Shown piece by piece: positions 27,733 to 48,046 of a stretch of 64,000 nucleotides of DNA. Position numbers and translations under genes: made by a program. The stretch lies in contig JAHJTE010000001.1 of assembly GCA_018830005.1 (NCBI GenBank), forward strand, positions 129,332 through 193,331. Reading direction: 5' to 3'. Numbering within the stretch: position 1 is the first letter of the stretch; each line of letters begins with the position of its first letter. The notes under the pieces were generated by a model. The model was given only the letters and a program-made list of their open reading frames with translations, made no database searches and had not been told where the DNA came from. Origin of the DNA: Candidatus Omnitrophota bacterium (GTDB lineage Bacteria; Omnitrophota; Gorgyraeia; JAHJTE01).

Positions 27733-28440
27733 ATGATTATCAAAAGAACAAAGATGATTATTGCTATGACCCTGGGGTTTATATTTGCAATCAACATTTC
27801 CTGCTATGCCACTGATTTTGAAAAGAATCAGATATTGAATTCTCGCCATATCTTGATTGGTACGATTGTCAAGGATAATCCTAGAGACTCCTTGGCAATC
27901 ATTAGAGATAGCACGAATGATAAAGATGCAAGTTACAAGGTTGGCCAAATTCTTGATGGATATTACATTGTTAGAATAAAACGGGCAGAGGTAGAACTTT
28001 TAAGGCAAGGAAAGATTTCCTCCTTAAGGCTGCCCTTAGGAGGCGGCGCTGAATTCATCACAATCGTTTCTGGAAACGAACGCATTGTTAACCGCACTGC
28101 TTTAAATGAGCGCTATAAGAATCTGAACGAAGTTTTTGGCGCTGGTATTGTGTTTCCTCACATTGAAAAGGGCAAGTTAGCAGGATTAAAGATTGTGCGT
28201 ATCAATGATGAAGAGCTTGCTAAGGCAACTGGCGTGAGCGAAGGTGATATAGTTATTTCGGTCAATAACCAGAAATTGACAGGTGTAAAACAAGCCTTAG
28301 ATGTTTATAATAAATTAAGAAATGAAGAAGAGATAGAGTTAGAGCTAAAGCGCAACGGAAAGTTGCATAAGTATAGTTATTATATGAATTGGGAAGAAGG
28401 AGGCAAGATACCAAGGCTGCTCAAAGAGCAGAAGTTATAA
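27733..28440 (+). CDS. GspC/PilP-like secretin-interacting protein with C-terminal PDZ domain (putative T2SS protein C)
   Basis: N-terminal signal/TM, HR-like beta domain (ILIGTIVKDNPRDSLAIIRD...YKVGQILDGYYIVRIKRAEVELL), PDZ-like GLKIVRINDEELAKATGVSEGDIVISVNNQKL. Confidence 0.45.
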   Translation: MIIKRTKMIIAMTLGFIFAINISCYATDFEKNQILNSRHILIGTIVKDNPRDSLAIIRDSTNDKDASYKVGQILDGYYIVRIKRAEVELLRQGKISSLRLPLGGGAEFITIVSGNERIVNRTALNERYKNLNEVFGAGIVFPHIEKGKLAGLKIVRINDEELAKATGVSEGDIVISVNNQKLTGVKQALDVYNKLRNEEEIELELKRNGKLHKYSYYMNWEEGGKIPRLLKEQKL

Positions 28441-30758: not shown

Positions 30759-32474
30759 GTGCCTCTACGCGATTCCACAAAAACAATCGGTCAGATTCTT
30801 GTAGCTGAGAAGATAGTTACTGCAGAGGAGTTAGAGGTTGCCCTGCGGGAACAGAGAAAAACCAGCGGTTATCTTTGCCAGATAATTGTAAATTTAGGAT
30901 TTGCAAAAGAGGAAGAGATTTTTCCTATTCTAGCCAATCAGTTAGGCATACCCTATATCCGCATCAAAAACATAAATATTGCTCCTGAGGTAATAAAGAA
31001 GGTTCCGGCAAAATTTGTTTCCCATTATAAGTTGATGCCCATTTCTATGGTAGGTAATAAATTGACCATTGCTATGAGTGACCCCTTGGATTTGCATACC
31101 CTTGATGATATCCGTCTTTTTTTAGGCGTAGAAGTGGTTCCTGTATTAGCAGGCGATAACGATATTGCAGAATCAATCAGAAAATATTACGGCATAGGCG
31201 CAGAAACTGTTGATAGGATTGTTAAAGAGACTTCTCCCCAGACAAAGAAGCCAATTTCAACCAAGGCCGATATCGAGGACCTGGAGGCAATGGCAGAAGA
31301 TGCCTCAATTGTCAAATTTGTAAATCAGCTGCTTGTTCAGGCCCTTAAGGACAGGGCTACTGATGTTCATATTGAGCCTTTCGAAGATGAATTGCGTGTG
31401 CGTTTTAGAATCGATGGTGTTCTCTATGCAATCAACATTCCTTCTAATCTGCGCTATCTACATGCCTCCATTGTCTCGCGCGTTAAGATTATGTCTAATT
31501 TAGATATTGCTGAGAGACGGCTTCCTCAAGACGGCCGGATTAAAGTGAAGATCGGTAAATATCAACTGGACCTGCGTGTTTCCATAATACCTTCTAATTT
31601 TGGAGAATCAGTACATATTAGAATCTTAAGTCCAGAATCATTTTTGGAGTTAGGGAAGTTAGGCCTACTTGAAAAGGACCTTAAGATAATTGAGCAAGCG
31701 ATTAAGACATCCCACGGTATAATCTTTGTTACCGGCCCGACTGGAAGCGGTAAGACTACTACGCTTTATGCGGGCCTAGCTAAGATAAACAAGAGCCCCT
31801 TAAAGATAATTACCATTGAGGATCCAATTGAATATCAACTTAAAGGTGTTATTCAACTTCAAGTGCAGCCCAAAATCGGTTTTGATTTTGCCCAAGGATT
31901 GCGCTCTATGTTGCGTCATGACCCGGATGTTATGATGGTAGGAGAGGTGCGTGATTTTGATACTGCAGAGATTGCAATCCGAGCTGCCTTAACTGGCCAC
32001 CTTGTATTTTCAACTCTGCATACAAATGATGCCTCTGGTGCAGTAACGCGGCTTCTGGATATGGGCGTTGAACCGTTTTTAATCTCTTCCAGTATAGAGT
32101 GTTTGATTGCCCAGCGCTTGGTGAGAGTGATATGCCCTAAGTGTAAAAACAAGCAGAAGATGAGCAAGGCTGCCCTTAAGGAATTGGGATTTCGCATTGA
32201 AGAGAATGAAGTCTTGACATATAAAGGCAAAGGCTGTTCTGATTGTCGTATGACAGGTTTTCGCGGAAGAACCGGGATATATGAGATTTTATTAGTAAGG
32301 GAACCTATACGCGAGCTCATCTTAAGTCGCGCCTCAAGTCAGCAGATAAAAAAGAAGGCCATAGATTTAGGCATGCTTACTTTAAGGCAGGATGGCTGGC
32401 AGAAGGTCTTAGAAGGGATTACTACAATAGATGAGGTCATCCGCCTAACGCAGCAGGAAGAATTACCAGTATAG
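30759..32474 (+). CDS. gspE: type II secretion system ATPase GspE (PilB-like)
   Basis: N-terminal MshEN/GSPII-N domain, Walker A GPTGSGKTTT, Asp/His boxes, tetracysteine Zn motif CPKC...CSDC. Confidence 0.85.
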   Translation: MPLRDSTKTIGQILVAEKIVTAEELEVALREQRKTSGYLCQIIVNLGFAKEEEIFPILANQLGIPYIRIKNINIAPEVIKKVPAKFVSHYKLMPISMVGNKLTIAMSDPLDLHTLDDIRLFLGVEVVPVLAGDNDIAESIRKYYGIGAETVDRIVKETSPQTKKPISTKADIEDLEAMAEDASIVKFVNQLLVQALKDRATDVHIEPFEDELRVRFRIDGVLYAINIPSNLRYLHASIVSRVKIMSNLDIAERRLPQDGRIKVKIGKYQLDLRVSIIPSNFGESVHIRILSPESFLELGKLGLLEKDLKIIEQAIKTSHGIIFVTGPTGSGKTTTLYAGLAKINKSPLKIITIEDPIEYQLKGVIQLQVQPKIGFDFAQGLRSMLRHDPDVMMVGEVRDFDTAEIAIRAALTGHLVFSTLHTNDASGAVTRLLDMGVEPFLISSSIECLIAQRLVRVICPKCKNKQKMSKAALKELGFRIEENEVLTYKGKGCSDCRMTGFRGRTGIYEILLVREPIRELILSRASSQQIKKKAIDLGMLTLRQDGWQKVLEGITTIDEVIRLTQQEELPV

Positions 32475-32514
32475 GATGAGTTAATAGTCTTAGATCTTTA
32501 GACTACTTAAGATT

Positions 32515-33732
32515 ATGCCTACATTTACCTACAAGGCAAAATTAGGTCCCAGCAAATTAGAACAAGGCTCAATCGAGGCTGAAAATCAAGAACAGGCAAT
32601 TAAGAAGATAAGTGATTTAGGGCTGTTTCCTGTAGAGGTACGGCCTTATAAGCAGTCAAAGAATATATCTTTATTCGCTAGGTTTGGACAGAGAAACAAG
32701 ATTAAAAATCAGGAAGTTATTAGCTTGACCCGCCAGTTAGCAAGCCTCTTGGAAGCTGGATTAAATATCCTCCCAGCCCTTAATGCCATAAAAAGCCAAT
32801 TAGTAATGCCTGCTTTAGTTTCTCTCGTTGATGATATTGCCCAAAATGTAAAAGATGGTGCATCATTCTCCGAAAGTCTAAGCCACCATAAAGATATTTT
32901 CTCTAGCCTTTATATCAATGTTGTAAGAAGCGGCGAATTGAGTGGAAGGTTAAATCACGTATTAGATACCTTAGCTGATTTTTTAGAAAAAGGCGAAGAT
33001 CTACGTCAGAGAATAATCTCTGCTTTAGTTTATCCTGTATTGGTTTTGGCAGTAGGCATTTTAACAGTAGCAGTCCTTTTGATTTTTGTCATTCCGCGTA
33101 TCGGGGTAATGTTTGAGGATATGGGTCAGGTGTTGCCTCTTCCCACACAGATAGTCGTGGGTATAAGCTCAATGATAGTAAATTATTTTTTTGTTTTTTT
33201 TGCAATTATAGTAGTTTTATTTTTCTTCATTAATAAGAGGATTAAAACAAAAGAAGGTAGAATTTTTGTTGACCGCAGCAAACTCAAAACTCCTCTTTTA
33301 GGGATGTTCATTCGTAAACAACACATCGTTCAATTTTCTCGCACCTTATCTCTACTCTTAGCAAGCGGTATTCCAATTGTGACTGCCTTAGAGCTGGTGG
33401 CTAATACCTTATCTAACGGAATGATCAGGCAAGAGGTAAAGACAATGTCTACTGCAATACGCGAGGGAGCTAGTCTTTCAACCTCAATAAAGGAGAGCAA
33501 ATATTTTCCTGCATTCGTCTCCAGTATTATTGCCGTTGCAGAAGAATCAGGAAGTTTAGATAGGTCGCTTGCGCGTTTAGCAAGCAGTTTTGAGCGTGAT
33601 GTAGAAAGGATTATTAAGACATTTACCGTAGCCTTAGAGCCAACACTCATTTTCCTCATTGGTTTAGTTGTTGGTTTTATAGTAATAGCAATGCTGCTTC
33701 CAATTTTCCAGATTAACTTGATTGTGGGTTGA
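32515..33732 (+). CDS. gspF: type II secretion system inner-membrane platform protein GspF (PilC-like)
   Basis: Duplicated GspF domain and 3 TM segments. Follows gspE. Confidence 0.8.
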   Translation: MPTFTYKAKLGPSKLEQGSIEAENQEQAIKKISDLGLFPVEVRPYKQSKNISLFARFGQRNKIKNQEVISLTRQLASLLEAGLNILPALNAIKSQLVMPALVSLVDDIAQNVKDGASFSESLSHHKDIFSSLYINVVRSGELSGRLNHVLDTLADFLEKGEDLRQRIISALVYPVLVLAVGILTVAVLLIFVIPRIGVMFEDMGQVLPLPTQIVVGISSMIVNYFFVFFAIIVVLFFFINKRIKTKEGRIFVDRSKLKTPLLGMFIRKQHIVQFSRTLSLLLASGIPIVTALELVANTLSNGMIRQEVKTMSTAIREGASLSTSIKESKYFPAFVSSIIAVAEESGSLDRSLARLASSFERDVERIIKTFTVALEPTLIFLIGLVVGFIVIAMLLPIFQINLIVG

Positions 33733-33765
33733 TGCAGGGATGATCGCAGATAACCGGAGGTAAAT

Positions 33766-34194
33766 ATGCGCAAGAGTAATAGTGGCTTTACGTTGATCGA
33801 ATTAATGCTCGTTGTAATCATCATCGGCGTCCTTGTTTCTATGGTTCTGCCGCGTCTTGCCGGAAGGTCAGAACAAGCAAGGATTGCGGCAGCAGGCGCG
33901 GATATAAATGCCAATATAGCTACAGCCTTAGATATGTATGAGCTTGACAACGGAAGATATCCTACGACAGAACAGGGTTTAAGGACATTGGTTGTTGAAT
34001 CGGATGTTTCGCCCCTACCTAACAATTGGCACGGGCCTTATCTGAAAAAGATACCCCAAGATCCATGGAAAAGAGCTTATGTATACAAATCTCCCGGAGA
34101 CCACAGCCAGGATTACGATCTATCCAGTTTAGGGCCTGACGGGATCGAAAGCGCTGATGATATTACCAGCTGGCAAAGTGAGATCTCTCCATAA
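33766..34194 (+). CDS. gspG: type II secretion system major pseudopilin GspG
   Basis: Prepilin N-terminus GFTLIELMLVVIIIGVL and T2SS-specific signature DPWKRAYVYKSPGDH...YDLSSLGPDG. Confidence 0.85.
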   Translation: MRKSNSGFTLIELMLVVIIIGVLVSMVLPRLAGRSEQARIAAAGADINANIATALDMYELDNGRYPTTEQGLRTLVVESDVSPLPNNWHGPYLKKIPQDPWKRAYVYKSPGDHSQDYDLSSLGPDGIESADDITSWQSEISP

Positions 34195-34657
34195 AAATAA
34201 ATTCGCCTTCACGTTAATTGAACTTCTATTGGTTGTAGCGGTTCTTTCCGTAATGGTTGGAATTAGTCTGCCTGCATTCAAAAAAACATATAACCGTCTG
34301 AATTTAGAAAATATTGCCCTTAATATTTTAAGTACTGCGCGCTATGCTCGGGCTAAGGCAATTGTCGAGTCAAGGATTTATCGTCTAAATTTTGATATCG
34401 AAGATAAGAGTTACTCACTCAGCACAGAAAGCGATGACAAAATCGAAGGCTTCCAGCCTATTAGTGGTCGCTTCGGAAAGATAGCTCAGATAACAGACGA
34501 TATCAACATTAAGACCTCAGCAGATCATGTCAATTTTTATCCAAGCGGAGATTCTGATGAAATAATAGTTGTTCTTAAAAATACTGATGGCAGAGTCTAT
34601 ACAATAGGAAAGTCAGGGGTCTTTGGCGAATTTAAGATTATTGAGGAAAAAGAATAG
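34157..34657 (+). CDS. minor pseudopilin (GspH-like); start uncertain (ATG 34157 or GTG 34178)
   Basis: Prepilin leader KNKFA/FTLIELLLVVAVLSVMV; follows gspG. Confidence 0.55.
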   Translation: MILPAGKVRSLHKNKFAFTLIELLLVVAVLSVMVGISLPAFKKTYNRLNLENIALNILSTARYARAKAIVESRIYRLNFDIEDKSYSLSTESDDKIEGFQPISGRFGKIAQITDDINIKTSADHVNFYPSGDSDEIIVVLKNTDGRVYTIGKSGVFGEFKIIEEKE

Positions 34658-34663
34658 GATATA

Positions 34664-35110
34664 ATGACTAAGCAGATTTTTAAGCGATTCCGTGGGTTTT
34701 TAAATCAGAACTCTTATAGTAGGTTAAGGGATAAGGCAAGAGCTGGTTTTCTTTTGATTGAAGTGTTGATAACTGTAGTAGTTCTAGGTACGGCGATTGT
34801 ATTTATTGTTCAGGCATTAAGCTCTTCTCTTTTTGCTGCAAGACGAGCCTCTCTTTATACAGAGGCATTGATGTTAATGGATGAACTCAACTGGGATGTC
34901 AAGTTAGAAACCTACTCCCAACCTTTTCTAAGTAGAGGGGATTTCCCTAAAAGCTCTAAAGTTTCTAAAGGTAAAACAGACTTTAATTTGAGGCAAGAAT
35001 TATTTTTAACGGATTTTCCTAATCTTTCAGAGATGGTTTTGACTGTCTCCTGGACAAAGGGAGAATTCTCAACATCGACGTATGTGCTGACGGCACAAGT
35101 AGAAGAGTGA
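34664..35110 (+). CDS. minor pseudopilin (GspI-like)
   Basis: Prepilin-type N-terminus AGFLLIEVLITVVVLGTAIV. Size and position after gspH. Confidence 0.5.
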   Translation: MTKQIFKRFRGFLNQNSYSRLRDKARAGFLLIEVLITVVVLGTAIVFIVQALSSSLFAARRASLYTEALMLMDELNWDVKLETYSQPFLSRGDFPKSSKVSKGKTDFNLRQELFLTDFPNLSEMVLTVSWTKGEFSTSTYVLTAQVEE

Positions 35111-35775
35111 GGCAGTCTAGCATGATTTTTAATATCTTAAACTATCGGCTAAAGAGTAGTGTGCTTAGGTATAAGAGAGGCATAACTTTTGTTGAGCTCT
35201 TAATTGCAATTTTGATATTTTCCATTATTGTTACCTCGCTGTATTCGGCATTTAGAGTAGGATTGACTGCATACAAAAGAGGTGAGAGGTTTGCCTCTTG
35301 CTATCAAGGGATACGTCTGGCCTTAGATTCAATTGCCTTGGATTTACGAAATAGCTATAAATTTTCTGAATCCGATGTCAGATTTAAAGCAGAAGAATCG
35401 AAGGTCTCATTTTATACTCTTAAGAATTTTACTTCAGAACAACATAAAGATAACTTTCAGATTTGCAAGATAGAATATTGGAAAGAGGATAAAGAATTAT
35501 TTAGAAAGGTTTTTGCTGGCAATTTGGCATTTTCCGAAGAAGAAGTAAGTGCTGGTCTCCTGCTGGATAATTTAAGTGAATTCAGCATTGAATTTCCCTA
35601 TAAAGATGAAGAGGCTCAATCAGTAGTTTGGAATGATTACTGGCTGGCAAGCGATGAGTTGCCTTTAGCAGTAAAGATTTATTTGAAGATAGATGAACCT
35701 GAAACGGGCCAACCCATAGAGTTGACAAAAATCATATATATTCCGACGGGAGAATTAGGAAGGCCTGAGGAATAA
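35107..35775 (+). CDS. minor pseudopilin (GspJ-like)
   Basis: Prepilin-type N-terminus RGITFVELLIAILIFSIIV. Overlapping start with the previous gene. Confidence 0.5.
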   Translation: MRQSSMIFNILNYRLKSSVLRYKRGITFVELLIAILIFSIIVTSLYSAFRVGLTAYKRGERFASCYQGIRLALDSIALDLRNSYKFSESDVRFKAEESKVSFYTLKNFTSEQHKDNFQICKIEYWKEDKELFRKVFAGNLAFSEEEVSAGLLLDNLSEFSIEFPYKDEEAQSVVWNDYWLASDELPLAVKIYLKIDEPETGQPIELTKIIYIPTGELGRPEE

Positions 35776-35785
35776 TGGGGTATTA

Positions 35786-36847
35786 TTGTTAGGAGTTATG
35801 GATTACATAAAGCCGTATAAAAAAGTTAACAATAAGGCCTTGATTCTAATTGTTGCCTTATGGATCGTAGCTATTCTGACTTTATTGGCTATTGGCCTGG
35901 CACATCGCATATCTATTGAGCTTCATCTGATTAGATTCTCTCGTGACAGATTAAAGGCCTGCTCTGCCTTAGAGGCTGCAGTACAATCAGCAGCTTATAT
36001 CATCGCCCAAGATATAAATGGTTACGACAGCATGAACGAGATCTGGGCTAATGGTATATGGGATGAATTTAACGAGTCAATCTTTAAGGATGTCAAGCTT
36101 AAACAGGCTGTATTTAGCATAATACATAAAGTAGATGATGAAACTGGCGTCCTATCTTTACTCTATGGGCTTAGCGATGAGCAGGCGAGGCTGAATATCA
36201 ATACCGCTACGGCCAATCACTTGCAGACATTTTTTCTAGAAGCTGAAATAGAGAATTCCAGAGAAATATCCGCTTCCATTTTAGATTGGATTGATGAGGA
36301 TGAGATTACATCTTTTGACGGAGCTGAGGATGATTACTATACTGGCCTGGATATGCCTTATCATTGTAAAAACGCACCCTTATCTAGCATTGAAGAATTA
36401 TTATTTATTAAAGGCATGGATCCTGATAAATTTGAAAAAATTAAACCCTTTATAACTGTTTATGGTGATGGTAAAATAAATATTAATACTGTAAGTGAGC
36501 TCCTCTTGAGTTCCCTGCTTATTAGTCGCGGAACTTTGGATTCGACTGCCAGGAAATTAGCTGGTGAGGTTGTTGATTATAGGCTTGGCGATGATGGTGA
36601 GATCGGAACTGTAGATGATAGAATTTTTGAAAAGTTCCAAGATATTGTTTTGGCCTTGAGTAGCCAAACTTCTTTGGGTGAGTTTGCTAAGTGCGCGGAT
36701 ATAATTAAGTTCAACTCCAGTTTTTTTCGGGCAGATATTTGGGCCCAGTCTTTAAATAAAGTTGCTCAGAAGAGGGCATTGTGTATATTAGAGAAAGACC
36801 GAGCAGCAGTAAAGATGCCCAAGGTAGTTAAATGGCAAGAGTATTAA
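35786..36847 (+). CDS. gspK: type II secretion system minor pseudopilin GspK
   Basis: N-terminal TM, GLSDEQARLNINTA and tandem helix-hairpin-helix-like motifs (SIEELLFIKGMDPDKFEKIKPFITVYG...ININTVSEL). Confidence 0.7.
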   Translation: MLGVMDYIKPYKKVNNKALILIVALWIVAILTLLAIGLAHRISIELHLIRFSRDRLKACSALEAAVQSAAYIIAQDINGYDSMNEIWANGIWDEFNESIFKDVKLKQAVFSIIHKVDDETGVLSLLYGLSDEQARLNINTATANHLQTFFLEAEIENSREISASILDWIDEDEITSFDGAEDDYYTGLDMPYHCKNAPLSSIEELLFIKGMDPDKFEKIKPFITVYGDGKININTVSELLLSSLLISRGTLDSTARKLAGEVVDYRLGDDGEIGTVDDRIFEKFQDIVLALSSQTSLGEFAKCADIIKFNSSFFRADIWAQSLNKVAQKRALCILEKDRAAVKMPKVVKWQEY

Positions 36848-36851
36848 TACA

Positions 36852-38300
36852 ATGAAGAGATTAAAAGCCAAGAAGAATGTCTTTAGCAGCGTCGAGCTGA
36901 ATCATGACTCGATTAAAATTGCTCAGGCAGAGTCAATTTTAGGAAAACCAAAATTTACCCATCTTTTTTACTCCCGCGTCGGCGACCTATCTAAGAAAGA
37001 AACTCAAGGCAAGATTAGGAGCCTCTTAAGCAAGGAGCAAATCGAAATTACAAATTGCCTTCTTTGTCTGCCTCGCCACAACGTAACAACCCGCTATCTT
37101 AAGCTGCCCAGTTTAGAAGAGCAAGAGATTGAAAAGATGCTTATGCTTCAAATCCCTAAATTGCTTCCTTATGCACCGGGAGAAATACTATCCAGTTACA
37201 AAAAGATTACTTCTGATAGTGAAGGTTATACTTATTGTATTGTGATTTTAGCCCAAGAAAATCTAGTAAGGCGTTATCTTTCGTTTCTTAAGGCCATAGG
37301 CATAGAGGCCTCAAGTGTTATTTTAAGTTCAGAAGTATGTGCTCACTGGCTAAGATTTATTAATAAAGTGAACATTAAAAATGAGACGATTGTTCTTATT
37401 GATGTCGATACGAGTAGTGTTGATATTATGATTATAAATGGGGGAGAACTAATTTTTACTCGTAGTTTTTCACGCGAATTACAAGATACGCAAGGTCTAT
37501 CCTGGCAGAATAAACTTCAGGATGAGATAAGGCGTACATTGGAGACTGCTGAAAAGGAAATAGGTAAGCAGAATATAACTCGCCTTATCTTAAGCGGCAG
37601 CCGTTTAGCCACAAAGGATACGGATAAGGCATTATCCGAAAATTTTTCTCGTCCTGTAGAAATTATCTCTAGACTTGAGGAGGAATGTATTAAGTCGCAG
37701 GCCTCAATAGCAAAGACCTTACGAGAATCAGATACCTCCTTTACCTCAGTTATGGGAGCTGCAGTTAGCAGGCAGAATTTTTCTATAAATCTTTTACCTG
37801 CGGATATTAAGGCCAGGCTAAATTGGCAAAGGCTAAAAAAGGAACGAGTCAAATGTATATCTTTAGTTCTATTAATTATTGCATTTTCTTTTGGTCTCTT
37901 TGTTAAACATATTTATGATAAACAGAGGCTCTTAAAAACATTAGAGCAGAAGATAGCAACATTATTGCCAGAAGCCACTATGAGAGAGAAGATAAGTTCA
38001 CGCCTGGAGATAATACGCGAGCAGTTAAAATCAAAGGTTTTTACCGCCCAGCTTATAAAAGAAATATACACTATCATTCCTGACAAGATATATTTAAATA
38101 GCCTTAGTATTCAAAAAGATGAGATTTTGATAATAAAGGGGCAGGCCGATAAATTATCTAATGTCTTTACTCTTGTAGGGGCCTTGGAAAAAAGTACATA
38201 TTTCCAAGACGTACGCGTGCGTTATGCTACGAAGAGAAAAGTCAAAACAGTTGAAATTACGGATTTTCAGATAGATTGTCCCCTAAAGGATAGCGAATAG
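36852..38300 (+). CDS. GspL-like assembly protein (PilM-type actin-like ATPase fold fused to PilN-type TM/periplasmic domain)
   Basis: ~320-aa cytoplasmic PilM-like region, TM helix (ISLVLLIIAFSFGLFV), ~130-aa periplasmic tail. Position between gspK and the gspM-like gene. Confidence 0.6.
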   Translation: MKRLKAKKNVFSSVELNHDSIKIAQAESILGKPKFTHLFYSRVGDLSKKETQGKIRSLLSKEQIEITNCLLCLPRHNVTTRYLKLPSLEEQEIEKMLMLQIPKLLPYAPGEILSSYKKITSDSEGYTYCIVILAQENLVRRYLSFLKAIGIEASSVILSSEVCAHWLRFINKVNIKNETIVLIDVDTSSVDIMIINGGELIFTRSFSRELQDTQGLSWQNKLQDEIRRTLETAEKEIGKQNITRLILSGSRLATKDTDKALSENFSRPVEIISRLEEECIKSQASIAKTLRESDTSFTSVMGAAVSRQNFSINLLPADIKARLNWQRLKKERVKCISLVLLIIAFSFGLFVKHIYDKQRLLKTLEQKIATLLPEATMREKISSRLEIIREQLKSKVFTAQLIKEIYTIIPDKIYLNSLSIQKDEILIIKGQADKLSNVFTLVGALEKSTYFQDVRVRYATKRKVKTVEITDFQIDCPLKDSE

Positions 38301-38312
38301 CTAGAGAATAAA

Positions 38313-38846
38313 ATGAAATTGATAAGTCAGCTGTCGAAAAGAGAAAAGAACATTTTTTATTTTACTATATTAATTATTGCCTTTAGCCTGATATTCAAAT
38401 TTATCTTGTTGCCTTTGTTTAATTTAAATCAGAGATTAACACAAGAGGTTAAAGCAAAAGAGATAGAACTGGTAAGGGCGAGGCGACTTTCTAAAGGCGG
38501 ATCAGTGCAAAGTCAATATGATGCATTCATTGCTGCGATTAAGATGGGTGAAAGCCAGGATTTGGAAATGGCCCGCTTACTTTCTGAAATAGAGTCAATA
38601 GCCAAAGAGGCAGGTGTGAATATCTTGAATTTAAGACCTCATGAGATAGAAGATAAGAGGTTTTATAAGAGATTTCTCATTGAATTAAAGTCTGAAGGAA
38701 CAAGCCAGCAAATTTTAAGATTTATATTTTCGTTAGAATCCTCACAACTCCTGTTGAGGATTGAGAAGTTTAACCTCAGCTCAAGAATCTCTAAGGGGAA
38801 TCTCCTTAATGCCACATTAACCGTCTCTAGAGTGGCAATTCCTTAA
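38313..38846 (+). CDS. GspM/PilO-like bitopic membrane protein
   Basis: N-terminal TM, coiled-coil region, C-terminal ferredoxin-like region. Gene order. Confidence 0.5.
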   Translation: MKLISQLSKREKNIFYFTILIIAFSLIFKFILLPLFNLNQRLTQEVKAKEIELVRARRLSKGGSVQSQYDAFIAAIKMGESQDLEMARLLSEIESIAKEAGVNILNLRPHEIEDKRFYKRFLIELKSEGTSQQILRFIFSLESSQLLLRIEKFNLSSRISKGNLLNATLTVSRVAIP

Positions 38847-38902: not shown

Positions 38903-38925
38903 CACTCTCTAGGTGGAGAGTGATT

Positions 38926-39168
38926 ATGGTTCGCAACATATATCTATTAAAAGACTTAGCAAGAATTACAGGCTATTCAACGCATACTATAAAATATTAT
39001 CTTAAAATTGGTCTTATTAAGGAGTTTGGCCGTAGCCCGGAAACTAACTTCCGTTATTTTACAGACAATACAGTTAAACTCCTAGGTTATATTCGGCAAC
39101 TGCGTAAAGAAAAAAAATCCATTGCGTGCATAAAAGAAATTATTAAACATAAAAAGTATACTAAGTAG
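38926..39168 (+). CDS. MerR-family HTH transcriptional regulator (small, DNA-binding domain only)
   Basis: LKDLARITGYSTHTIKYYLKIGLI...FRYFTDNTVKLLGYIRQLRKE matches the MerR HTH plus start of the coiled coil. ATG at 38926 follows GGAGAG RBS. Confidence 0.7.
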   Translation: MVRNIYLLKDLARITGYSTHTIKYYLKIGLIKEFGRSPETNFRYFTDNTVKLLGYIRQLRKEKKSIACIKEIIKHKKYTK

Positions 39169-39179: not shown

Positions 39180-40004
39180 ATGAGCTATTTTAGCCAACTT
39201 GGCCTAACCCAGGAACCATTTTCGACAAGCCCAGATCCTGAATTTCTTTATCATTCCCTAGGTCACGAGACTGCCTTGAGGCGGCTTGAGATCTCCATAC
39301 GCTTACGCAGAGGATTAAGTCTTATTGTCGGTGATATTGGCACAGGAAAGACCACTCTTAGCCGCACCCTCTTTCAGGTATTTAAGAATGAGCCAGACTT
39401 TATTTTTCACCTCATACTAGATCCTAATTACAAAACTGAATTTCAATTTCTTTCTTCATTGATTAAGATGTTGGGGATACACCCGAATTTTAAGTCCACG
39501 CTGGATTATAAGGAGTCACTAAAGGATTATCTATTCGCAAAAGGTGTAGAGGAAAACAAGACAATAATTTTATTAATTGATGAGGGGCAGAAGTTGACTC
39601 CGGATCACCTTGAGATTCTAAGGAGCCTGCTTAATTATGAAACCAATGAGTATAAACTATTACAACTTGTGATTATGTCTCAAATGGAACTCTTACCACG
39701 TTTAAGAAGGGCGAAGAATTTCACTGACCGTATAGCCTTAAAATACATAATTAATCCCCTGGGCGAGAACGAGACAAAACAGATGATTGAATTTAGATTA
39801 CATCAGGCGGGATTTGATAAAGGAGCCAGCCTCTTTAGTGAAGAGGCGATGCGATTAATCTATGAATATACTCAAGGTTATCCGCGCAAGATTACTCTTC
39901 TTTGCCATGACGCATTGGAACTTTTGATCATGAAAGAAAAGAGAATAGTAGATAGAGGAATTGTTGAAGAGATTATAAACAGAGAGTCTTTTTTAAATGG
40001 ATAG
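39180..40004 (+). CDS. ExeA/GspA-like AAA+ ATPase
   Basis: Walker A GDIGTGKTTL, Walker B LLIDEGQ. Typical ExeA size and its association with T2SS. Confidence 0.75.
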   Translation: MSYFSQLGLTQEPFSTSPDPEFLYHSLGHETALRRLEISIRLRRGLSLIVGDIGTGKTTLSRTLFQVFKNEPDFIFHLILDPNYKTEFQFLSSLIKMLGIHPNFKSTLDYKESLKDYLFAKGVEENKTIILLIDEGQKLTPDHLEILRSLLNYETNEYKLLQLVIMSQMELLPRLRRAKNFTDRIALKYIINPLGENETKQMIEFRLHQAGFDKGASLFSEEAMRLIYEYTQGYPRKITLLCHDALELLIMKEKRIVDRGIVEEIINRESFLNG

Positions 40005-40656
40005 ACCATCACCAGAAGAAAAATTATTGCGCCTGATTAAAGACGCTACTGGAAAGGGGGCCCGGCAGAAGAAAAAGCAGGCCGATGCACAGGAGAGCGT
40101 GCAGCCTTCGTCGCCAGAGCTTCCAGTCCGAACCCAAAAGTTGCGGACACATCAAAAGCGGATCAAGAAGCTCAAAACCCCTATTTTCAGCTTTAAATTT
40201 ATAAATAAGGTCTTGCATACTTTGCTTGTAATTATATTTTTATTTTTTGTTTTTAACATTATCTATAGCAGCAGAGAAATAAGCCAGGTAGAAAGAGAGG
40301 GATTTGAAAAGGATAAGGATTTAGAATTTGCTTCTTTTCCTGAAACCCTTGAGGGGGAATTTACTGACTATCTGTCAGCCGGCAGGAGGCGTGATATATT
40401 TACTTCCTCTGGCATGCAGATGATATCCGAAGGTTTAGCATCTTCTATATTTGATGCGGAGCAGTATGTTGGTAAGCTAAAATTATTAGGCATAATTTCA
40501 GGCATTAAGTCTCAAGCAATTGTTGAGGATCAGAACGAAAATAAAAATTACACCTTAAGTGTTGGTGATTATTTAAAGGAGTTCTTAGTTGAAGAAGTAG
40601 GAAAAGGTAAAGTGCTATTTGATTATAAGGGTGAGAAGTTTGATTTGTATCTATAA
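39997..40656 (+). CDS. bitopic protein in the ExeB/GspB position; C-terminal PilP/GspC-HR-like beta domain
   Basis: Basic N-terminus, single TM (VLHTLLVIIFLFFVF), C-terminal LKLLGIISG...QAIVED...YTLSVGDYL...KVLFDYKGEKFDL resembles the PilP/GspC secretin-binding beta-sandwich. Confidence 0.35.
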   Translation: MDRPSPEEKLLRLIKDATGKGARQKKKQADAQESVQPSSPELPVRTQKLRTHQKRIKKLKTPIFSFKFINKVLHTLLVIIFLFFVFNIIYSSREISQVEREGFEKDKDLEFASFPETLEGEFTDYLSAGRRRDIFTSSGMQMISEGLASSIFDAEQYVGKLKLLGIISGIKSQAIVEDQNENKNYTLSVGDYLKEFLVEEVGKGKVLFDYKGEKFDLYL

Positions 40657-40720: not shown

Positions 40721-42646
40721 ATGATTAATACGAAAATATTCCCAATTTTGACATTAGTGATTTTTCTGATCTTTCCTTTTGGTGTCCTTGCCCAGCAAGA
40801 AGCAGAAGTTCAAGAAGACCCAATGAACAAGGAGCTGCAAATTAAAGAAGAGCCCTTGGATGAGACGATTTCTCTTGATATCAAGGGTATGGATATTGTA
40901 GATGTCCTAAAGACATTGGCTATGCGTTCAGGATTAAATATCGTCGTGGGTAAAAATGTAGTGGGAAAGGTCACCATCTTCTTAAAAGGTGTTATGCCGC
41001 GTCAGGCCCTTGACATAATCTTATTGGCTAATGGTCTTGCATACGAAGAGCAGGATGGAATTATTAGTGTAATGACTGACCGCGATTATGAAGCGCGCTT
41101 CGGTGAAAAATTTGCCGACAAAAAAGAGATTTCTGTCGTAAAGTTAAAATATGCTAAGGCAGCGAATTTGGTCCCTACCCTCAACCAGATGAAGTCTACG
41201 ATTGGTAAGGTTTTTGTCGATGAGGGATCTAATGTAGCTGTACTTATGGATACCCCAGAGAGATTATCGCAGATGCGCCAGATGTTACTTCATATTGACC
41301 GTCCAACCCAGACGCGCATATTTGATCTTAACTACTCAGATTCGGATAAGCTCCAGAATAAAATTCAAGAAATGCTAAGTAAAAACATAGGAACCATTAC
41401 GATTGATGAGCGCACTAATAAGATTATTGTCACTGATTATTCTGAAAAAATAGATAATATTGCAAAGATTATTAATGCCTTTGATTCGCGTACGCGTCAG
41501 GTGCTCATTGATTCTAAGATTGTTGAAATCACCTTAAGTGATAGGTTTCAACTTGGCATTGACTGGGAATATTGGATTGAAAAGAATTTCAAGGTTGGCA
41601 ATACCTTTCCTTTAAGCCTTACTACAGGCGGCACATTGACACTGGGTACTACTAGCGCGATAGACGAGGTAGGTGAATATAAAAGTGTTGTTGACATGCT
41701 AAGAACTATTGGAGACACGCGCGTTCTCTCAAGTCCCAGAGTAACGGCATTGAATAATGAGGAGGCAAAGATTCTTATCGGCACAAAAGAAGCCTATATT
41801 ACCCAGACTACTTCTCAATCGGGCACAGGAGCAACTATAACTGCCGAAAGCGTTAATTTTGTTGATGTGGGAGTTCAGCTTTACGTTACGCCCACTATCA
41901 ATCAAGAAGGTTTTGTGACAATGAAAATAAAGCCAGTAGTAAGCTCTGCTGTACGCACAGAGATAACAAGCGGCGATACAATAAGTGAAATACCTATTGT
42001 CTCTACTTCTGAGGCCGAGACATCGGTGATGGTTAAAGACGGCTCAACTATAATAATTGCTGGTTTAATTAAAGACGAGATAATTCAGACAATAAATAAA
42101 ATCCCGGTTTTAGGAGATATACCCATACTCGGCCACCTATTTAAAAACACGAGTGATGAGGTTAGAAAGAAGGAACTTGTAATATTTTTAACTCCTCATA
42201 TACTCTCTCCTTCCTTAGTTGAAACCAAGGCTAATGCCTTAGAATTTGAAGAAAGCATTAATACTTTAGAGCATTATAATAAACCTGAGCCAGACAAGAT
42301 ACGTTCGCTAAAGTCCGAGGAGAGCCAAGCAGAATTAAAGAACGATGAGGATTCCCTAGATTTAAGTTACGTTGGATATCTTACCCGCTTGCGCAAAATT
42401 ATAGCTGAGCAGGCAAGCAATATTGCCAGAGATGATTTTTCATCTGGGAAAGTAGAGATTTCTTTTGTTCTGGGTGCTGATGGTAAGTTGTTGGCAGATC
42501 CAGAGGTTGCCTTTGCCACAAGTGATGATTTAGGAGAGCTTGCCTTAAAGGCAGTACTTGCCTCAAGTCCTTTTCCGCCTTTTCCTGAAGATTTAAAAAG
42601 AAAACAAGAACGTTTTGATATTGTTATTTCTTATTCAGAAAAATAG
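40721..42646 (+). CDS. gspD: secretin (GspD/PilQ family) with C-terminal TonB-C-like domain
   Basis: Signal peptide, N0/N1-like domains, secretin core (VLIDSKIVEITL...IPVLGDIPILGHLFKNT...LVIFLTPHIL). Followed by ~100-aa tail GKVEISFVLGADGKLLADPEVAFATSDDLGELALKAVLASSPFPPFP matching the TonB C-terminal domain pattern. Confidence 0.8.
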   Translation: MINTKIFPILTLVIFLIFPFGVLAQQEAEVQEDPMNKELQIKEEPLDETISLDIKGMDIVDVLKTLAMRSGLNIVVGKNVVGKVTIFLKGVMPRQALDIILLANGLAYEEQDGIISVMTDRDYEARFGEKFADKKEISVVKLKYAKAANLVPTLNQMKSTIGKVFVDEGSNVAVLMDTPERLSQMRQMLLHIDRPTQTRIFDLNYSDSDKLQNKIQEMLSKNIGTITIDERTNKIIVTDYSEKIDNIAKIINAFDSRTRQVLIDSKIVEITLSDRFQLGIDWEYWIEKNFKVGNTFPLSLTTGGTLTLGTTSAIDEVGEYKSVVDMLRTIGDTRVLSSPRVTALNNEEAKILIGTKEAYITQTTSQSGTGATITAESVNFVDVGVQLYVTPTINQEGFVTMKIKPVVSSAVRTEITSGDTISEIPIVSTSEAETSVMVKDGSTIIIAGLIKDEIIQTINKIPVLGDIPILGHLFKNTSDEVRKKELVIFLTPHILSPSLVETKANALEFEESINTLEHYNKPEPDKIRSLKSEESQAELKNDEDSLDLSYVGYLTRLRKIIAEQASNIARDDFSSGKVEISFVLGADGKLLADPEVAFATSDDLGELALKAVLASSPFPPFPEDLKRKQERFDIVISYSEK

Positions 42647-46310: not shown

Positions 46311-46321
46311 GGAGAATTAAG

Positions 46322-46426
46322 ATGACTTTAGGCGGCATAATTCTTTTGGTTATTTCCTGGAGTACGATACTTTCTTTGGTATTTTTTTGTTTTAAACGCA
46401 TATTTACGGCTAAGGAAATAAAATAA
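46322..46426 (+). CDS. 34-aa single-TM peptide, possible NSS-transporter small subunit (MetS-like)
   Basis: GGGAGA RBS. Start 12 nt after the NSS stop. Hydrophobic TM core with C-terminal Lys/Arg. Position analogous to MetP/MetS-type pairs. Confidence 0.3.
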   Translation: MTLGGIILLVISWSTILSLVFFCFKRIFTAKEIK

Positions 46427-46456
46427 TTTAATCTATAGAGTTAGAGGAGGGTTTCT

Positions 46457-46840
46457 ATGAAGAGGATAATTCCAATTTTGATTATTGGATTACTAAGTGC
46501 AGGTTGCGTACCATTGATTATCGGTGGCGTGGGGGTTTTAGGCGGTTATGCAATAAGTAGAGATACTGTTGCTGTTGAGTTGAGTAAGGATACACAAGAT
46601 ATCTGGCAGGCAGCAAAAGATGTAATTTCAGACTTAGGTTTTATCAAAAATGCTGATGAAGAGGCTAGGGTTATTGAGGCAGACGTCTTTTCAAGTTACG
46701 TGATTATTCGTATTGAGAAATTAACTGAAGCAACAAATCGCTTAAAAGTGAAATCGAGAAAATACTTTATGCCAAACATTGGCCTTGCCCAGAAGATATT
46801 TGTAAAAATAATGCAGAAGCTGGATCGTAGCTATAGATGA
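46457..46840 (+). CDS. hypothetical lipoprotein
   Basis: Lipobox LLSAGC. No recognisable domain. Confidence 0.4.
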   Translation: MKRIIPILIIGLLSAGCVPLIIGGVGVLGGYAISRDTVAVELSKDTQDIWQAAKDVISDLGFIKNADEEARVIEADVFSSYVIIRIEKLTEATNRLKVKSRKYFMPNIGLAQKIFVKIMQKLDRSYR

Positions 46841-47643: not shown

Positions 47644-47740
47644 TTTTTTTCCTTACTGACAGTTAAGGTCATAGCTAGAAACCAAAACAGAATATTGACA
47701 TCTGGCGCTATTTTGATAGAATAAGAGCCTGTCAAATCTG

Positions 47741-47816
47741 GCCGAGGTAGCTCAAATGGTAGAGCGCGGGACTGAAAATCCCGGCGTAGCCGGTTCGATC
47801 CCGGCCCTCGGCACCA
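47741..47816 (+). tRNA. tRNA-Phe (GAA)
   Basis: Cloverleaf: acceptor GCCGAGG/CCTCGGC, anticodon loop CT-GAA-AA, T-loop GGTTCGATCC, encoded CCA. Downstream hairpin plus T-tract terminator. Confidence 0.85.
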
Positions 47817-48003: not shown

Positions 48004-48046
48004 TTAAGTTATCCCTGAAAGCAAAATTCTTATAGGAAGATAGGCT

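What the first reader, a model, noticed from the sequence alone, without database searches (positions are those of the whole stretch)
42316..42646. Secretin fused to a TonB C-terminal-like domain
The last ~100 residues of the GspD/PilQ secretin (YVGYL...GKVEISFVLGADGKLLADPEVAFATSDDLGELALKAVLASSPFPPFP) match the TonB-C fold pattern: G.V.V.F.I..DG, the LD.AA..AV motif, and a PPF tail. TonB-C domains dock onto TonB-box beta-strands of outer-membrane receptors. A secretin carrying one would be an unusual way to tether the channel to another OM protein or to peptidoglycan. I do not know of this fusion as a described architecture.
Basis: inference. Interest (0 to 1): 0.55.

Follow-up and report, generated by a model that had tools for sequence, protein, structure and literature searches.

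The report
Secretin with a built-in TonB domain
The outer-membrane channel of a protein-secretion machine in an uncultured Omnitrophota bacterium ends in a domain copied from the TonB energy-transducer family; this fusion is conserved across the phylum, I found no paper describing it, and its function is unknown.

Summary
ORF 40721-42646 (+, 641 aa) is the GspD-type secretin of a complete type II secretion operon. Its last ~90 residues (550-638; nt 42368-42634) form a TonB/TolA-type C-terminal domain.

- **Domain identity.** Pfam TonB_2 scores 24.8 bits against a cutoff of 22. A profile of 56 orthologous tails hits the H. pylori TonB C-terminal domain (CTD) at E=6e-7. The AF2 model (pLDDT 87) has alpha-beta-beta-alpha-beta topology, and 25 of its best 28 PDB matches are TonB, TolA, HasB or FusB domains.
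- **Linker.** A variable, poorly predicted 38-86 aa linker joins the domain to the barrel, where other secretins have the pilotin-binding S domain.
- **Spread.** It is not an assembly artefact: 67 of 80 species-representative genomes have it in the same ORF. Tad-type Omnitrophota secretins also carry TonB_C copies.
- **Origin.** The nearest non-secretin relatives are full TonB proteins (SxxxH anchor). One is labelled Omnitrophota. Another, on an unlabelled contig, sits beside a TonB-dependent receptor.

The protein is not a TonB, because it has no inner-membrane anchor. Some databases nevertheless name orthologues "TonB family protein". I found no paper describing the fusion. The most likely role is a passive docking or anchoring module; the partner is unknown and this step is inferred. 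I rate it a new variant of a known kind, of moderate interest.

The parts
40721..42646 (+). Whole gene: GspD-type secretin with a C-terminal TonB-like domain (641 aa). Identical to NCBI 'hypothetical protein KJ593_00935 [Candidatus Omnitrophica bacterium]'.
   Evidence: ORF; Pfam and NCBIfam; exact database match P0001; structural matches to T2SS secretins.
40721..40792 (+). Signal peptide (residues 1-24, ...FGVLA|QQ). No lipobox and no TonB-type SxxxH membrane anchor.
   Evidence: Read directly from the sequence; helix 7-16 followed by a low-confidence stretch in the AF2 model.
40868..41074 (+). N0 domain (STN-like), residues 50-118. This is the most conserved part of the protein (77% mean pairwise identity).
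   Evidence: Pfam STN E=1.5e-5 and type_II_gspD_N0 E=8e-5, both below cutoff; AF2 secondary structure; conservation.
41117..41485 (+). Two Secretin_N ring domains (N1-like residues 133-192, N3-like residues 196-255).
   Evidence: Pfam Secretin_N E=7e-24, two stretches; AF2.
41498..42205 (+). Secretin beta-barrel core, residues 260-495.
   Evidence: Pfam Secretin E=1.3e-48, residues 327-495; AF2 strands 260-495.
42206..42367 (+). Linker, residues 496-549. It is rich in E, S and K and has only low-confidence helices. It occupies the position of the S domain of other secretins.
   Evidence: pLDDT 44-56; 28% mean pairwise identity and length 38-86 aa among 120 homologues.
42368..42634 (+). TonB/TolA-type C-terminal domain, residues 550-638: alpha1 550-568, beta1 576-585, beta2 595-599, alpha2 602-615, SPFPPFP motif, beta3 629-638.
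   Evidence: Pfam; PDB profile hit; AF2; Foldseek.
39997..40656 (+). GspB/GspC-like protein: one TM helix plus a C-terminal domain that weakly matches part of the GspC model. It lies immediately upstream of the secretin in 78 of 82 related loci.
   Evidence: TIGR01713 GspC E=0.011 on residues 153-219; synteny.
39180..40004 (+). ExeA/GspA-like AAA_22 ATPase. It is cytoplasmic only, with no TM helix or peptidoglycan-binding domain.
   Evidence: Pfam AAA_22 E=2e-16 and TIGR03015 E=7.6e-50; present upstream in 67 of 82 loci.
38920..39168 (+). MerR-family regulator embedded in the operon.
   Evidence: Pfam MerR_1 E=2.8e-14; conserved in 57 of 82 loci.
30759..38846 (+). T2SS core genes: gspE (with MshEN domain), gspF, gspG, gspH-like, gspI-like, gspJ, gspK, gspL-like (PilM+PilN) and gspM.
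   Evidence: Pfam; NCBIfam, where GspG passes its equivalog cutoff at 158.8 bits against 88.85.
27733..28440 (+). GspC (GspC-model match plus PDZ domain).
   Evidence: Pfam PDZ_2; NCBIfam GspC_delta E=1.7e-32 and TIGR01713 E=1.6e-15.

Best explanation
This is the outer-membrane secretin (GspD) of a type II secretion system. Within the phylum Omnitrophota it has acquired the C-terminal globular domain of that phylum's own TonB-type proteins.

**Shown.**
- The domain is homologous to TonB CTDs and is confidently predicted to adopt their fold.
- It hangs on a 38-86 residue linker that varies in sequence and is predicted with low confidence. The linker leaves the barrel where other secretins carry the pilotin-binding S domain.
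- The protein has a signal peptide and no inner-membrane SxxxH anchor, so it cannot be coupled to ExbB/ExbD as TonB is.
- The fusion is conserved across most species examined and recurs in Tad-type secretins.

**Inferred.**
- Each subunit of the ring presents one TonB-like head in the periplasm just outside the barrel.
- That head works as a passive, non-energised docking module. Like the TonB and TolA heads seen in complex in the PDB, it would bind a short extended 'box' strand of a partner by beta-strand augmentation along its last strand (residues 629-638).
- The purpose is generic to secretins: targeting, assembling or anchoring the multimer in the envelope. [quoted passage not shown]
- The partner is not identified.
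For: **Identity of the domain.**
- Pfam TonB_2 is above its cutoff for the tail alone, and 51 of 56 orthologous tails hit TonB_C.
- The tail profile hits H. pylori TonB CTD at E=6e-7.
- AF2 gives pLDDT 87 with topology a-b-b-a-b.
- 25 of the 28 best Foldseek PDB matches are TonB, TolA-III, HasB or FusB domains, including complexes with BtuB, FhuA, FoxA, a TolB peptide and phage g3p.

**Origin.**
- Among the top 150 representatives found with the tail profile, about 30 are 185-260 aa proteins with an N-terminal SxxxH TM helix, a linker and the same CTD signature (YYxlIReKI...GeV.lsF.L.sdG.L...ASPFPpFP...F.I.I.F).
- One of them is named 'energy transducer TonB [Ca. Omnitrophota]'.
- Another lies next to a Plug+TonB_dep_Rec receptor whose N-terminus contains a TonB-box-like EPIAVTAS stretch.
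- Tails are 32% identical to these free CTDs, against 37% among themselves.

**Tether and position.**
- Linker pLDDT is 44-56, against 85-91 for the domain.
- Linker identity is 28% and its length is 38-86 aa.

**Real and selected.**
- 67 of 80 species-representative genomes have the tail in the same ORF.
- The G, F and PFPPFP positions are invariant or nearly so.

**A role generic to secretins.**
- Tad-type secretins (T2SS-T3SS_pil_N + Secretin) from Omnitrophota carry one or two TonB_C copies, in an RcpC-secretin-TadZ/CpaF locus.
- One GspD-type orthologue carries three copies.
- Related CpaC secretins in other lineages carry BON or LysM domains, which are envelope or peptidoglycan binders.

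**The ExeA-like ATPase lacks the peptidoglycan-binding domain of Aeromonas ExeA.**
- This protein is 274 aa with no TM helix.
- The Aeromonas function is described in PMC4098917.
Against: - No partner was identified.
- A TonB-box-like pattern search of the operon's proteins and nearby putative cargo found nothing.
- Tail-less orthologues (about 9 of 80) sit in the same gene neighbourhood with no obvious compensating gene. The tail is therefore dispensable in some lineages.
- The tail evolves faster (40% identity) than the N0, N1, N3 and barrel regions (62-77%). It is an accessory rather than a core part.
- Tandem duplication of the domain (2-3 copies) is more typical of binders of a repeating polymer such as peptidoglycan than of one-to-one strand docking.
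- The structure tools here predict single chains only, so no complex could be modelled.
Confidence: 0.4

Rival explanations
1. Peptidoglycan anchor. The TonB-like heads bind the cell wall directly. They fix the secretin ring to peptidoglycan and replace the wall-binding modules used by other secretin systems: AMIN on PilQ, LysM on TsaP and some CpaC proteins, and PG_binding_1 on ExeA.
For: - The ExeA-like ATPase of this operon has no periplasmic peptidoglycan-binding domain. In Aeromonas that domain is required for secretin assembly (PMC4098917).
- Related CpaC-type secretins carry LysM or BON domains where the Omnitrophota ones carry TonB_C.
- The domain occurs in 2-3 tandem copies on some secretins, which is typical of polymer binders.
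- From my own knowledge, not checked here: an affinity of the E. coli TonB C-terminus for peptidoglycan has been reported.
Against: - In the PDB complexes matched here, members of this fold are bound to proteins or peptides, never to glycan.
- The tail keeps the same signature as free TonBs, which presumably bind receptor TonB boxes.
- Nothing here tests peptidoglycan binding directly.
Confidence: 0.22
2. Docking onto TonB boxes of TonB-dependent receptors. The ring of heads captures receptors such as the BtuB-like one. This would cluster importers around the exporter, or modulate them by competing with the free TonB.
For: - A free TonB with nearly the same CTD signature is encoded next to a Plug+barrel receptor that has a TonB-box-like stretch; the contig carries no organism label.
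- Tails are about as similar to these CTDs as to each other.
Against: - From my own knowledge: soluble TonB C-terminal fragments inhibit TonB-dependent uptake in E. coli. A constitutive ring of unenergised heads would therefore be expected to block import.
- The same domain on Tad-pilus secretins points to a role tied to secretins rather than to nutrient import.
- The secretin loci examined show no TonB-dependent receptor as a neighbour.
- A preprint on Omnitrophota genomes reports that the flanks of giant-protein loci lack the canonical TBDR/sus polysaccharide-import architecture. That statement covers those flanks only, not whole genomes.
Confidence: 0.13
3. Contact within the machine. The tethered head reaches down and binds a strand of the secretin's own N0 (STN-like) domain or of the GspB/GspC-like protein. 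This would staple the ring or link it to the inner-membrane platform. It would be a covalent version of the old proposal that TonB-like ExeB binds N0 as TonB binds its receptors.
For: - PMC4098917 states that N0 resembles the FpvA signalling domain and that ExeB is 39% similar to TonB, and it hypothesises a TonB-like interaction with the N0 beta2 strand.
- The GspB/GspC-like gene is the most constant neighbour, present in 78 of 82 loci.
- By my own estimate, a 38-86 aa linker is long enough to reach the N0 ring.
Against: - Tail-less orthologues keep the same N0 domain and the same neighbours.
- Tad-type secretins lack an N0/STN domain yet carry the tail.
- N0 is far more conserved than the tail, 77% against 40%.
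- No complex could be modelled.
Confidence: 0.12
4. Artefact or decaying remnant. The tail would be a mis-assembled or read-through downstream tonB gene, or a fusion that no longer has a function.
For: - Three of 80 species representatives have an in-frame stop between the barrel and the tail (L047, L049, L061).
- About nine lack the tail altogether.
Against: - The same fusion is found in 67 of 80 independent genomes.
- There is no TM anchor or start signal between the barrel and the tail.
- Structural residues are invariant.
- It is the most confidently folded part of the full-length model.
Confidence: 0.03

Closest known systems
T2SS secretins GspD / PulD / ExeD / EpsD, with their C-terminal S domain and pilotins (PulS, AspS)
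   Same: - Signal peptide, N0, Secretin_N rings and secretin barrel.
- Encoded with gspC, E, F, G, H, I, J, K, L and M.
- Best structural matches are ExeD, GspD, EpsD and PulD.
- It has a C-terminal extension outside the barrel.
   Different: - The extension is a linker plus a TonB/TolA-type globular domain, not a short helical S domain.
- Only two Secretin_N domains are detected.
- No pilotin gene was recognised in the locus.
TonB C-terminal domain (H. pylori TonB 5lw8/6sly; HasB; E. coli TonB) and TolA domain III
   Same: - Same fold and order of elements, with detectable sequence homology.
- Like H. pylori TonB and TolA-III, it starts with a long helix.
- Free TonBs, at least one of them from Omnitrophota, share its signature.
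   Different: - It is attached to an outer-membrane channel rather than to an inner-membrane SxxxH anchor.
- It therefore cannot receive energy from ExbB/ExbD or TolQ/TolR in the known way.
ExeA/ExeB (GspA/GspB) secretin-assembly factors of Aeromonas and Vibrio
   Same: - An ExeA-like ATPase and a small single-pass protein with a GspC-like C-terminal domain sit directly upstream of the secretin.
- ExeB was originally described as TonB-like (PMC4098917).
   Different: - The ATPase here lacks the TM helix and the peptidoglycan-binding domain.
- The genuine TonB-type domain sits on the secretin itself, not on the ExeB-like protein.
Other accessory domains fused to or ringed around secretins: AMIN on PilQ, LysM/BON on some CpaC proteins, TsaP LysM ring
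   Same: All are extra periplasmic modules on a secretin. BON and LysM variants were seen among relatives of the Tad-type fusion.
   Different: The domain family is different. In the PilQ (AMIN) and CpaC (BON) cases the accessory domains are mostly N-terminal, whereas this one is C-terminal.
[quoted passage not shown]
   Same: It is a bioinformatic precedent for a secreted TonB-C domain attached to an outer-membrane protein.
   Different: The barrel family, operon and phylum are all different. It is not a secretin.

Membership tests
Secretin (GspD-type, type II secretion) | Secretin C-domain (PF00263) forming the gated beta-barrel | tested here: met
   E=1.3e-48, 165 bits against a cutoff of 27.5, residues 327-495; AF2 long strands at 260-495; Foldseek hits to ExeD, GspD, EpsD and PulD at E=1e-17 to 3e-21.
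Secretin (GspD-type, type II secretion) | N-terminal N0 (STN-like) domain plus Secretin_N ring domains, and a signal peptide | tested here: met
   Secretin_N E=7e-24 with two stretches. STN (25.1 bits) and N0 (22.8 bits) are just below their cutoffs but are the most conserved region. The signal peptide was read from the sequence.
Secretin (GspD-type, type II secretion) | Encoded with T2SS pseudopilins and platform genes | tested here: met
   gspE, F, G, H, I, J, K, L and M lie upstream, and gspC at 27733. GspG passes its equivalog cutoff.
Secretin (GspD-type, type II secretion) | Passes the curated GspD or PilQ equivalog score | tested here: not met
   TIGR02517 GspD scores 254 bits against a cutoff of 351. 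TIGR02515 PilQ scores 268 against 284. It is a divergent member assigned by context, not by an equivalog model.
TonB/TolA C-terminal domain superfamily (Pfam TonB_C PF03544, TonB_2 PF13103) | Sequence match to the family models | tested here: met
   TonB_2 scores 24.8 bits against a cutoff of 22 for the tail alone. TonB_C scores 21.5 against 24.6 (below cutoff) for this sequence, but 51 of 56 orthologues match at E<=0.01, best 6e-9. The PDB profile hit to TonB CTD is E=6e-7.
TonB/TolA C-terminal domain superfamily (Pfam TonB_C PF03544, TonB_2 PF13103) | Three-stranded sheet packed against helices (alpha-beta-beta-alpha-beta) | tested here: met
   AF2 pLDDT 87 with elements H10-28, E36-45, E55-59, H62-75, E89-98. 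Foldseek top hits are TonB and TolA domains, with TM about 0.55-0.6.
TonB/TolA C-terminal domain superfamily (Pfam TonB_C PF03544, TonB_2 PF13103) | Binds a partner 'box' strand by beta-augmentation | not testable with these tools
   Only single-chain prediction is available, and no partner is known.
TonB energy transducer (the whole protein, as some orthologues are named in databases) | N-terminal inner-membrane helix with an SxxxH motif that couples to ExbB/ExbD | tested here: not met
   The N-terminus is a cleavable signal peptide followed by secretin domains. The free relatives do have SxxxH.
TonB energy transducer (the whole protein, as some orthologues are named in databases) | Proline-rich rigid periplasmic spacer | tested here: inconclusive
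   The linker is rich in E, S and K, with only 5.5% proline. Some orthologues have K/E/P-rich repeats.
TonB energy transducer (the whole protein, as some orthologues are named in databases) | Genetic association with exbB/exbD or with a TonB-dependent receptor | tested here: not met
   None was found in the annotated parts of the window or in the two loci inspected by Pfam (L001, L002). The window holds no second TonB-like domain. Window regions 1-13.8 kb and 54.6-64 kb were not annotated.

The most novel reading that the evidence does not exclude
The ring of TonB-derived heads is an active interface between the secretion channel and the TonB system, not a passive anchor. The heads are nearly the same as those of free TonBs, at least one of which is labelled Omnitrophota. 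They could therefore capture the same 'box' strands on TonB-dependent receptors or on secretion cargo. Alternatively they could pair with the head of an energised TonB, as TonB heads dimerise in crystals. Either way, secretin gating, cargo delivery or import would be coupled to the proton-motive force or to each other.
Probability: 0.1. Interest if true: 0.8.

Novelty: new variant of a known kind. Interest (0 to 1): 0.5.

Why it matters
**Secretin assembly.** How secretins are targeted, assembled and anchored differs between systems (pilotins, ExeAB, AMIN/LysM) and is unknown for most uncultured phyla. Omnitrophota appear to have recruited a TonB head onto the secretin itself, in at least two secretin classes.

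**An old hypothesis.** A TonB-like interaction between an ExeB/GspC-type partner and the receptor-like N0 domain of secretins has been proposed before (PMC4098917). This fusion offers a natural construct to test whether that kind of strand docking is used in secretion machines.

**Annotation.** Several orthologues are named 'TonB family protein' or 'TonB C-terminal domain-containing protein'. This hides a secretin and can inflate counts of TonB systems. A recent Omnitrophota genome preprint lists 'TonB C-terminal domain' genes next to secretion genes without identifying them, and these may be such secretins.

**Ecology.** The operon sits beside a giant surface protein and a dockerin-bearing glycosidase-like protein. 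It is therefore likely to matter for the host-dependent lifestyle proposed for this phylum.

Tried and rejected
- **Genome scan with the tail alignment.** The search for related loci with A1 failed because no stretch was conserved enough. I used the full-length alignment A2 instead.
- **Short contigs.** The contigs for free TonBs P0239 and P0258 were too short to show neighbours. P0262 and P0238 were informative.
- **TonB-box pattern search.** The regex [DEQ][TSP][ILVM][TVIA][VI][TSV][AGS], run over the secretin, GspB-like, GspC, GspL, GspM, the giant protein, the GH/dockerin protein and ORF 44285, found nothing.
- **Compensating genes.** I looked downstream of eight tail-less orthologues for a pilotin-like lipoprotein or a separate TonB_C gene and found nothing consistent.
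- **Correlation with neighbours.** Presence of the tail does not track the ExeA-like, GspB-like or MerR neighbours. Tail-less loci have the same neighbours.
- **False positives.** The top-scoring hits P0122 and P0123 (many 'stretches') are repeat proteins with no TonB domain by Pfam.
- **Rejected ideas.**
  - The N-terminal 'DETISLDIKG' is not a TonB box. It is the conserved first strand of N0.
  - The protein is not a TonB (see membership test).
  - The fusion is not an assembly artefact, given its conservation.
Full report
**1. What is at the coordinates.**

The finding lies at the 3' end of ORF 40721..42646 on the + strand (641 aa). The quoted peptide is there. The stated start, 42316, is one base out of frame and falls in a linker. 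The folded domain spans residues ~550-638 (nt 42368-42634).

Pfam assigns the body of the protein to the secretins:
- Secretin, E=1.3e-48, residues 327-495;
- two Secretin_N domains, E=7e-24;
- weak STN/N0 matches at residues 53-118.

NCBIfam scores are high but below the equivalog cutoffs for PilQ (268 bits), GspD (254) and MshL (198). The N-terminus is a cleavable signal peptide. The exact protein is in public databases as 'hypothetical protein KJ593_00935 [Candidatus Omnitrophica bacterium]' on an 848-kb contig.

**2. Is the tail a TonB-type domain?**

Yes. Four lines of evidence agree.
- **Single sequence.** The tail alone scores 24.8 bits on TonB_2 (PF13103, cutoff 22; E=2.5e-5) and 21.5 bits on TonB_C (PF03544, cutoff 24.6; E=3.3e-4). 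TIGR01352 gives 20 bits, below its cutoff of 27.1.
- **Family.** I cut the tails from full-length homologues and aligned 56 of them (A1). Scanned one by one, 51 hit TonB_C and 50 hit TonB_2 at E<=0.01 (best E-values 6e-9 and 1e-10).
- **Solved structures by sequence.** The A1 profile finds H. pylori TonB CTD (5lw8, 6sly) at E=6e-7 and HasB CTD at 0.029.
- **Fold.** AlphaFold2 on A1 gives mean pLDDT 87 and the order helix 10-28, strand 36-45, strand 55-59, helix 62-75, strand 89-98. Of the 28 best Foldseek matches against the PDB, 25 are TonB, HasB, FusB or TolA-III domains. Several are in complex with BtuB, FhuA, FoxA, a TolB peptide or phage g3p. The best match is 6sly, E=9e-5, TM 0.56.

The long first helix and the A-S-P-F-P-P-F-P motif place the domain nearer to the TonB_2 / H. 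pylori TonB / TolA-III type than to E. coli TonB.

In a full-length model (pLDDT 66.7 overall), the tail is the most confident region (85-91). Residues 497-549 are the least confident (44-56).

**3. Context: a type II secretion operon.**

All genes below are on the + strand.

| Coordinates | Gene or product | Evidence |
|---|---|---|
| 22223-27730 | 1835-aa beta-helix/PKD/CBM-like protein | |
| 27733-28440 | GspC (GspC-model match plus PDZ) | |
| 28972-30579 | GH2-like TIM barrel with a dockerin | |
| 30759-38846 | gspE (with MshEN domain), gspF, gspG, gspH-like, gspI-like, gspJ, gspK, gspL-like PilM-PilN fusion, gspM | |
| 38920-39168 | MerR-family gene | |
| 39180-40004 | ExeA/GspA-like AAA_22 ATPase, 274 aa, no TM helix or peptidoglycan-binding domain | |
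| 39997-40656 | 219-aa single-pass protein whose C-terminus weakly matches part of the GspC model | |
| 40721-42646 | the secretin | |

GspG passes its equivalog cutoff. The full-length model matches T2SS secretins best: ExeD, ETEC GspD, V. cholerae GspD and PulD, at E=1e-17 to 3e-21. I therefore call the protein the GspD of a T2SS.

**4. Is the fusion real and conserved?**

- A protein search returned 120 listed full-length homologues at 46-73% identity. Nearly all that carry an organism name are Omnitrophota. About half already carry precomputed TonB_C or TonB_2 hits, and some are named 'TonB family protein' or 'TonB C-terminal domain-containing protein'. In my alignment all of them have the tail.
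- A scan of one genome per GTDB species found 171 genomes with relatives. Among the best 80, local HMM searches found the tail as follows:
  - in the same reading frame as the barrel in 67;
  - directly after an in-frame stop in 3 (L047, L049, L061);
  - absent in about 9;
  - undetermined in one, where the contig ends inside the gene (L056).
- Record titles are overwhelmingly Omnitrophota. A few are labelled Planctomycetales/Planctomycetia, Patescibacteria group or Cyanobacteriota, which I take to be placeholder labels for MAGs.
- The gene order gspL-gspM-merR-exeA-like-gspB/C-like-secretin is conserved. Among 82 loci, the GspB-like gene is present in 78, the ExeA-like gene in 67 and MerR in 57. 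Tail-less loci share this order.
- Mean pairwise identity by region among the 120 homologues is: N0 0.77, N1 0.62, N3 0.67, barrel 0.69, linker 0.28, tail 0.40. The linker is 38-86 aa long and enriched in E, S and K.

The tail is thus a conserved but faster-evolving accessory on a variable tether.

**5. Where did the domain come from, and where else is it?**

An exhaustive profile search with A1 found 8696 cluster representatives at E<=1e-3 and 823 at E<=1e-10. The best 150 break down as follows.
- **Secretins.** 40, plus P0011, contain the Omnitrophota-type secretin core.
- **Full TonB proteins.** About 30 are 185-260 aa proteins with an N-terminal TM helix carrying SxxxH, a charged linker and a C-terminal domain. 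This is the full TonB architecture. Their consensus is almost the same as that of the tails.
  - P0262 is named 'energy transducer TonB [Candidatus Omnitrophota bacterium]'.
  - P0238 is encoded directly after a Plug+TonB_dep_Rec barrel in a BtuFCD-like cluster. The receptor's N-terminus contains a TonB-box-like EPIAVTAS stretch.
  - Tails are on average 32% identical to these free heads, against 37% among themselves.
- **A triple-tail secretin.** P0121 carries three tandem tails.
- **A second secretin class.** Tad/Flp-type secretins (T2SS-T3SS_pil_N + Secretin; P0241 and six related clusters, two of them labelled Omnitrophica/Omnitrophota) carry one or two TonB_C copies. P0241 lies in an RcpC-secretin-TadZ/CpaF locus. 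These Tad tails are more distant (23-25% identity), so they may stem from a separate or older fusion.
- **Other lineages.** More distant CpaC relatives carry BON and LysM domains instead.

**6. How it most likely works.**

*Shown.* A TonB-type head, of the same family as the free TonBs described above, is attached to an outer-membrane channel subunit by a variable, poorly predicted linker. The protein has no inner-membrane anchor. The arrangement is conserved and recurs in two secretin classes.

*From established knowledge of secretin structures, not tested here.* The C-terminus of T2SS secretins emerges on the outside of the barrel near the inner leaflet of the outer membrane. There the S domain binds the pilotin and the neighbouring subunit. 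A 12-15-mer would therefore display a crown of heads in the periplasm.

*Inferred.* The head is a passive docking module. The PDB complexes of this fold that matched here show partners bound to the head. From established knowledge, TonB and TolA heads bind by adding a partner strand alongside the last strand, and that strand is kept here (invariant F632).

Because the same solution appears on T2SS and Tad secretins, the role is probably generic to secretins: targeting, assembly or anchoring rather than cargo selection. It may compensate for the missing periplasmic part of the ExeA-like protein. I give this reading about 0.4.

The rivals are:
- a direct peptidoglycan anchor (0.22), supported by tandem copies and by the LysM/BON analogues;
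- an intramolecular or intra-machine contact with N0 or the GspB-like protein (0.12), which echoes the hypothesis recorded in PMC4098917 but fits poorly with Tad secretins that lack N0;
- an artefact or remnant (0.03).

**7. Comparison with what is known.**

- It is a secretin: the defining domains and operon context are met, although the curated equivalog scores are not reached.
- Its tail belongs to the TonB/TolA C-terminal domain superfamily: sequence and fold criteria are met, and binding is untestable here.
- The whole protein is not a TonB energy transducer: it has no SxxxH anchor and no exbBD association. Database names such as 'TonB family protein' are therefore misleading.
- Five full-text searches found no paper describing a secretin-TonB_C fusion.
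- A 2026 preprint on Omnitrophota genomes notes 'TonB C-terminal domain' genes among the secretion-gene flanks of giant proteins, without mentioning secretins.
- None of the solved secretin structures returned by the fold search is described as carrying such a domain.

**8. Verdict.**

The architecture is real, widespread in the phylum, flagged by automated annotation, and apparently undescribed in the literature I could search. Its function is inferred, not shown. It is a new variant of a known kind, with interest about 0.5. It would interest specialists in secretins and TonB, and it can be tested with recombinant protein. However, it is a domain recombination rather than a new kind of system, and it sits in a phylum that is hard to work with.

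Noticed in passing
window 22223-30579: A giant 1835-aa ORF (beta-helix, PKD, He_PIG, CBM96/disaggregatase-like repeats) lies directly upstream of the T2SS genes. It is followed by GspC (27733-28440) and by a GH2-like TIM-barrel protein with a dockerin (28972-30579). These are plausibly the cargo. The layout matches the giant-protein, secretion-gene and GH2 neighbourhoods reported for Omnitrophota in 10.64898/2026.06.07.730766.
   Followed up: partly
window 39180-40004: The ExeA/GspA-like AAA_22 ATPase is only 274 aa and has no TM helix or peptidoglycan-binding domain, unlike Aeromonas ExeA. It is conserved next to the secretin in 67 of 82 loci.
   Followed up: partly
window 38920-39168: A MerR-family regulator gene sits inside the secretion operon between gspM and the exeA-like gene. 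It is conserved there in 57 of 82 related loci.
   Followed up: partly
window 30759-32474: GspE carries an N-terminal MshEN domain (Pfam E=9e-22; NCBIfam c-di-GMP-binding motif E=2.3e-12). This suggests that c-di-GMP controls the secretion ATPase.
   Followed up: no
L047 (about 5461), L049 (about 5530), L061 (about 3262): In three species-representative genomes an in-frame stop codon separates the secretin barrel from the tail. In two of them the stop lies within the first helix of the tail. Possible causes are sequencing error, decay of the tail, or read-through.
   Followed up: partly
L087 1851-5126 (P0241); also P0271-P0276: Tad/Flp-pilus-type secretins (T2SS-T3SS_pil_N + Secretin, about 840-1110 aa), two of whose clusters are labelled Omnitrophica/Omnitrophota, carry one or two TonB_C copies after the barrel. 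P0241 lies in an RcpC-secretin-TadZ/CpaF locus. Related CpaC proteins in other lineages carry BON and LysM domains instead.
   Followed up: partly
L088 693-3248 (P0121): A GspD-type secretin of 851 aa carries three tandem TonB-like tails (residues 512-603, 628-718 and 762-851).
   Followed up: partly
L086 5910-8612: A free TonB (P0238, 203 aa, SxxxH anchor) has a head of the same signature as the secretin tails. It is encoded directly after a Plug+barrel receptor whose N-terminus contains a TonB-box-like EPIAVTAS stretch, in a cobalamin-type BtuFCD-like cluster. The contig carries no organism label. If it is Omnitrophota, as the close similarity of its head to P0262 suggests, the phylum has at least one conventional TonB-dependent importer.
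   Followed up: partly
P0124, P0126, P0131, P0148, P0198 (representatives): Secreted proteins made of three to five tandem TonB_C/TonB_2 domains, and one TPR protein with several such domains. Their taxonomy and function were not examined.
   Followed up: no
window 44733-54602: Downstream genes include an SNF-family sodium symporter (44733-46310), a staphylococcal-nuclease homologue (46837-47643), an MFS transporter, an Rnf complex operon (49342-53346) and a serpin (53343-54602, Pfam E=3e-127).
   Followed up: no
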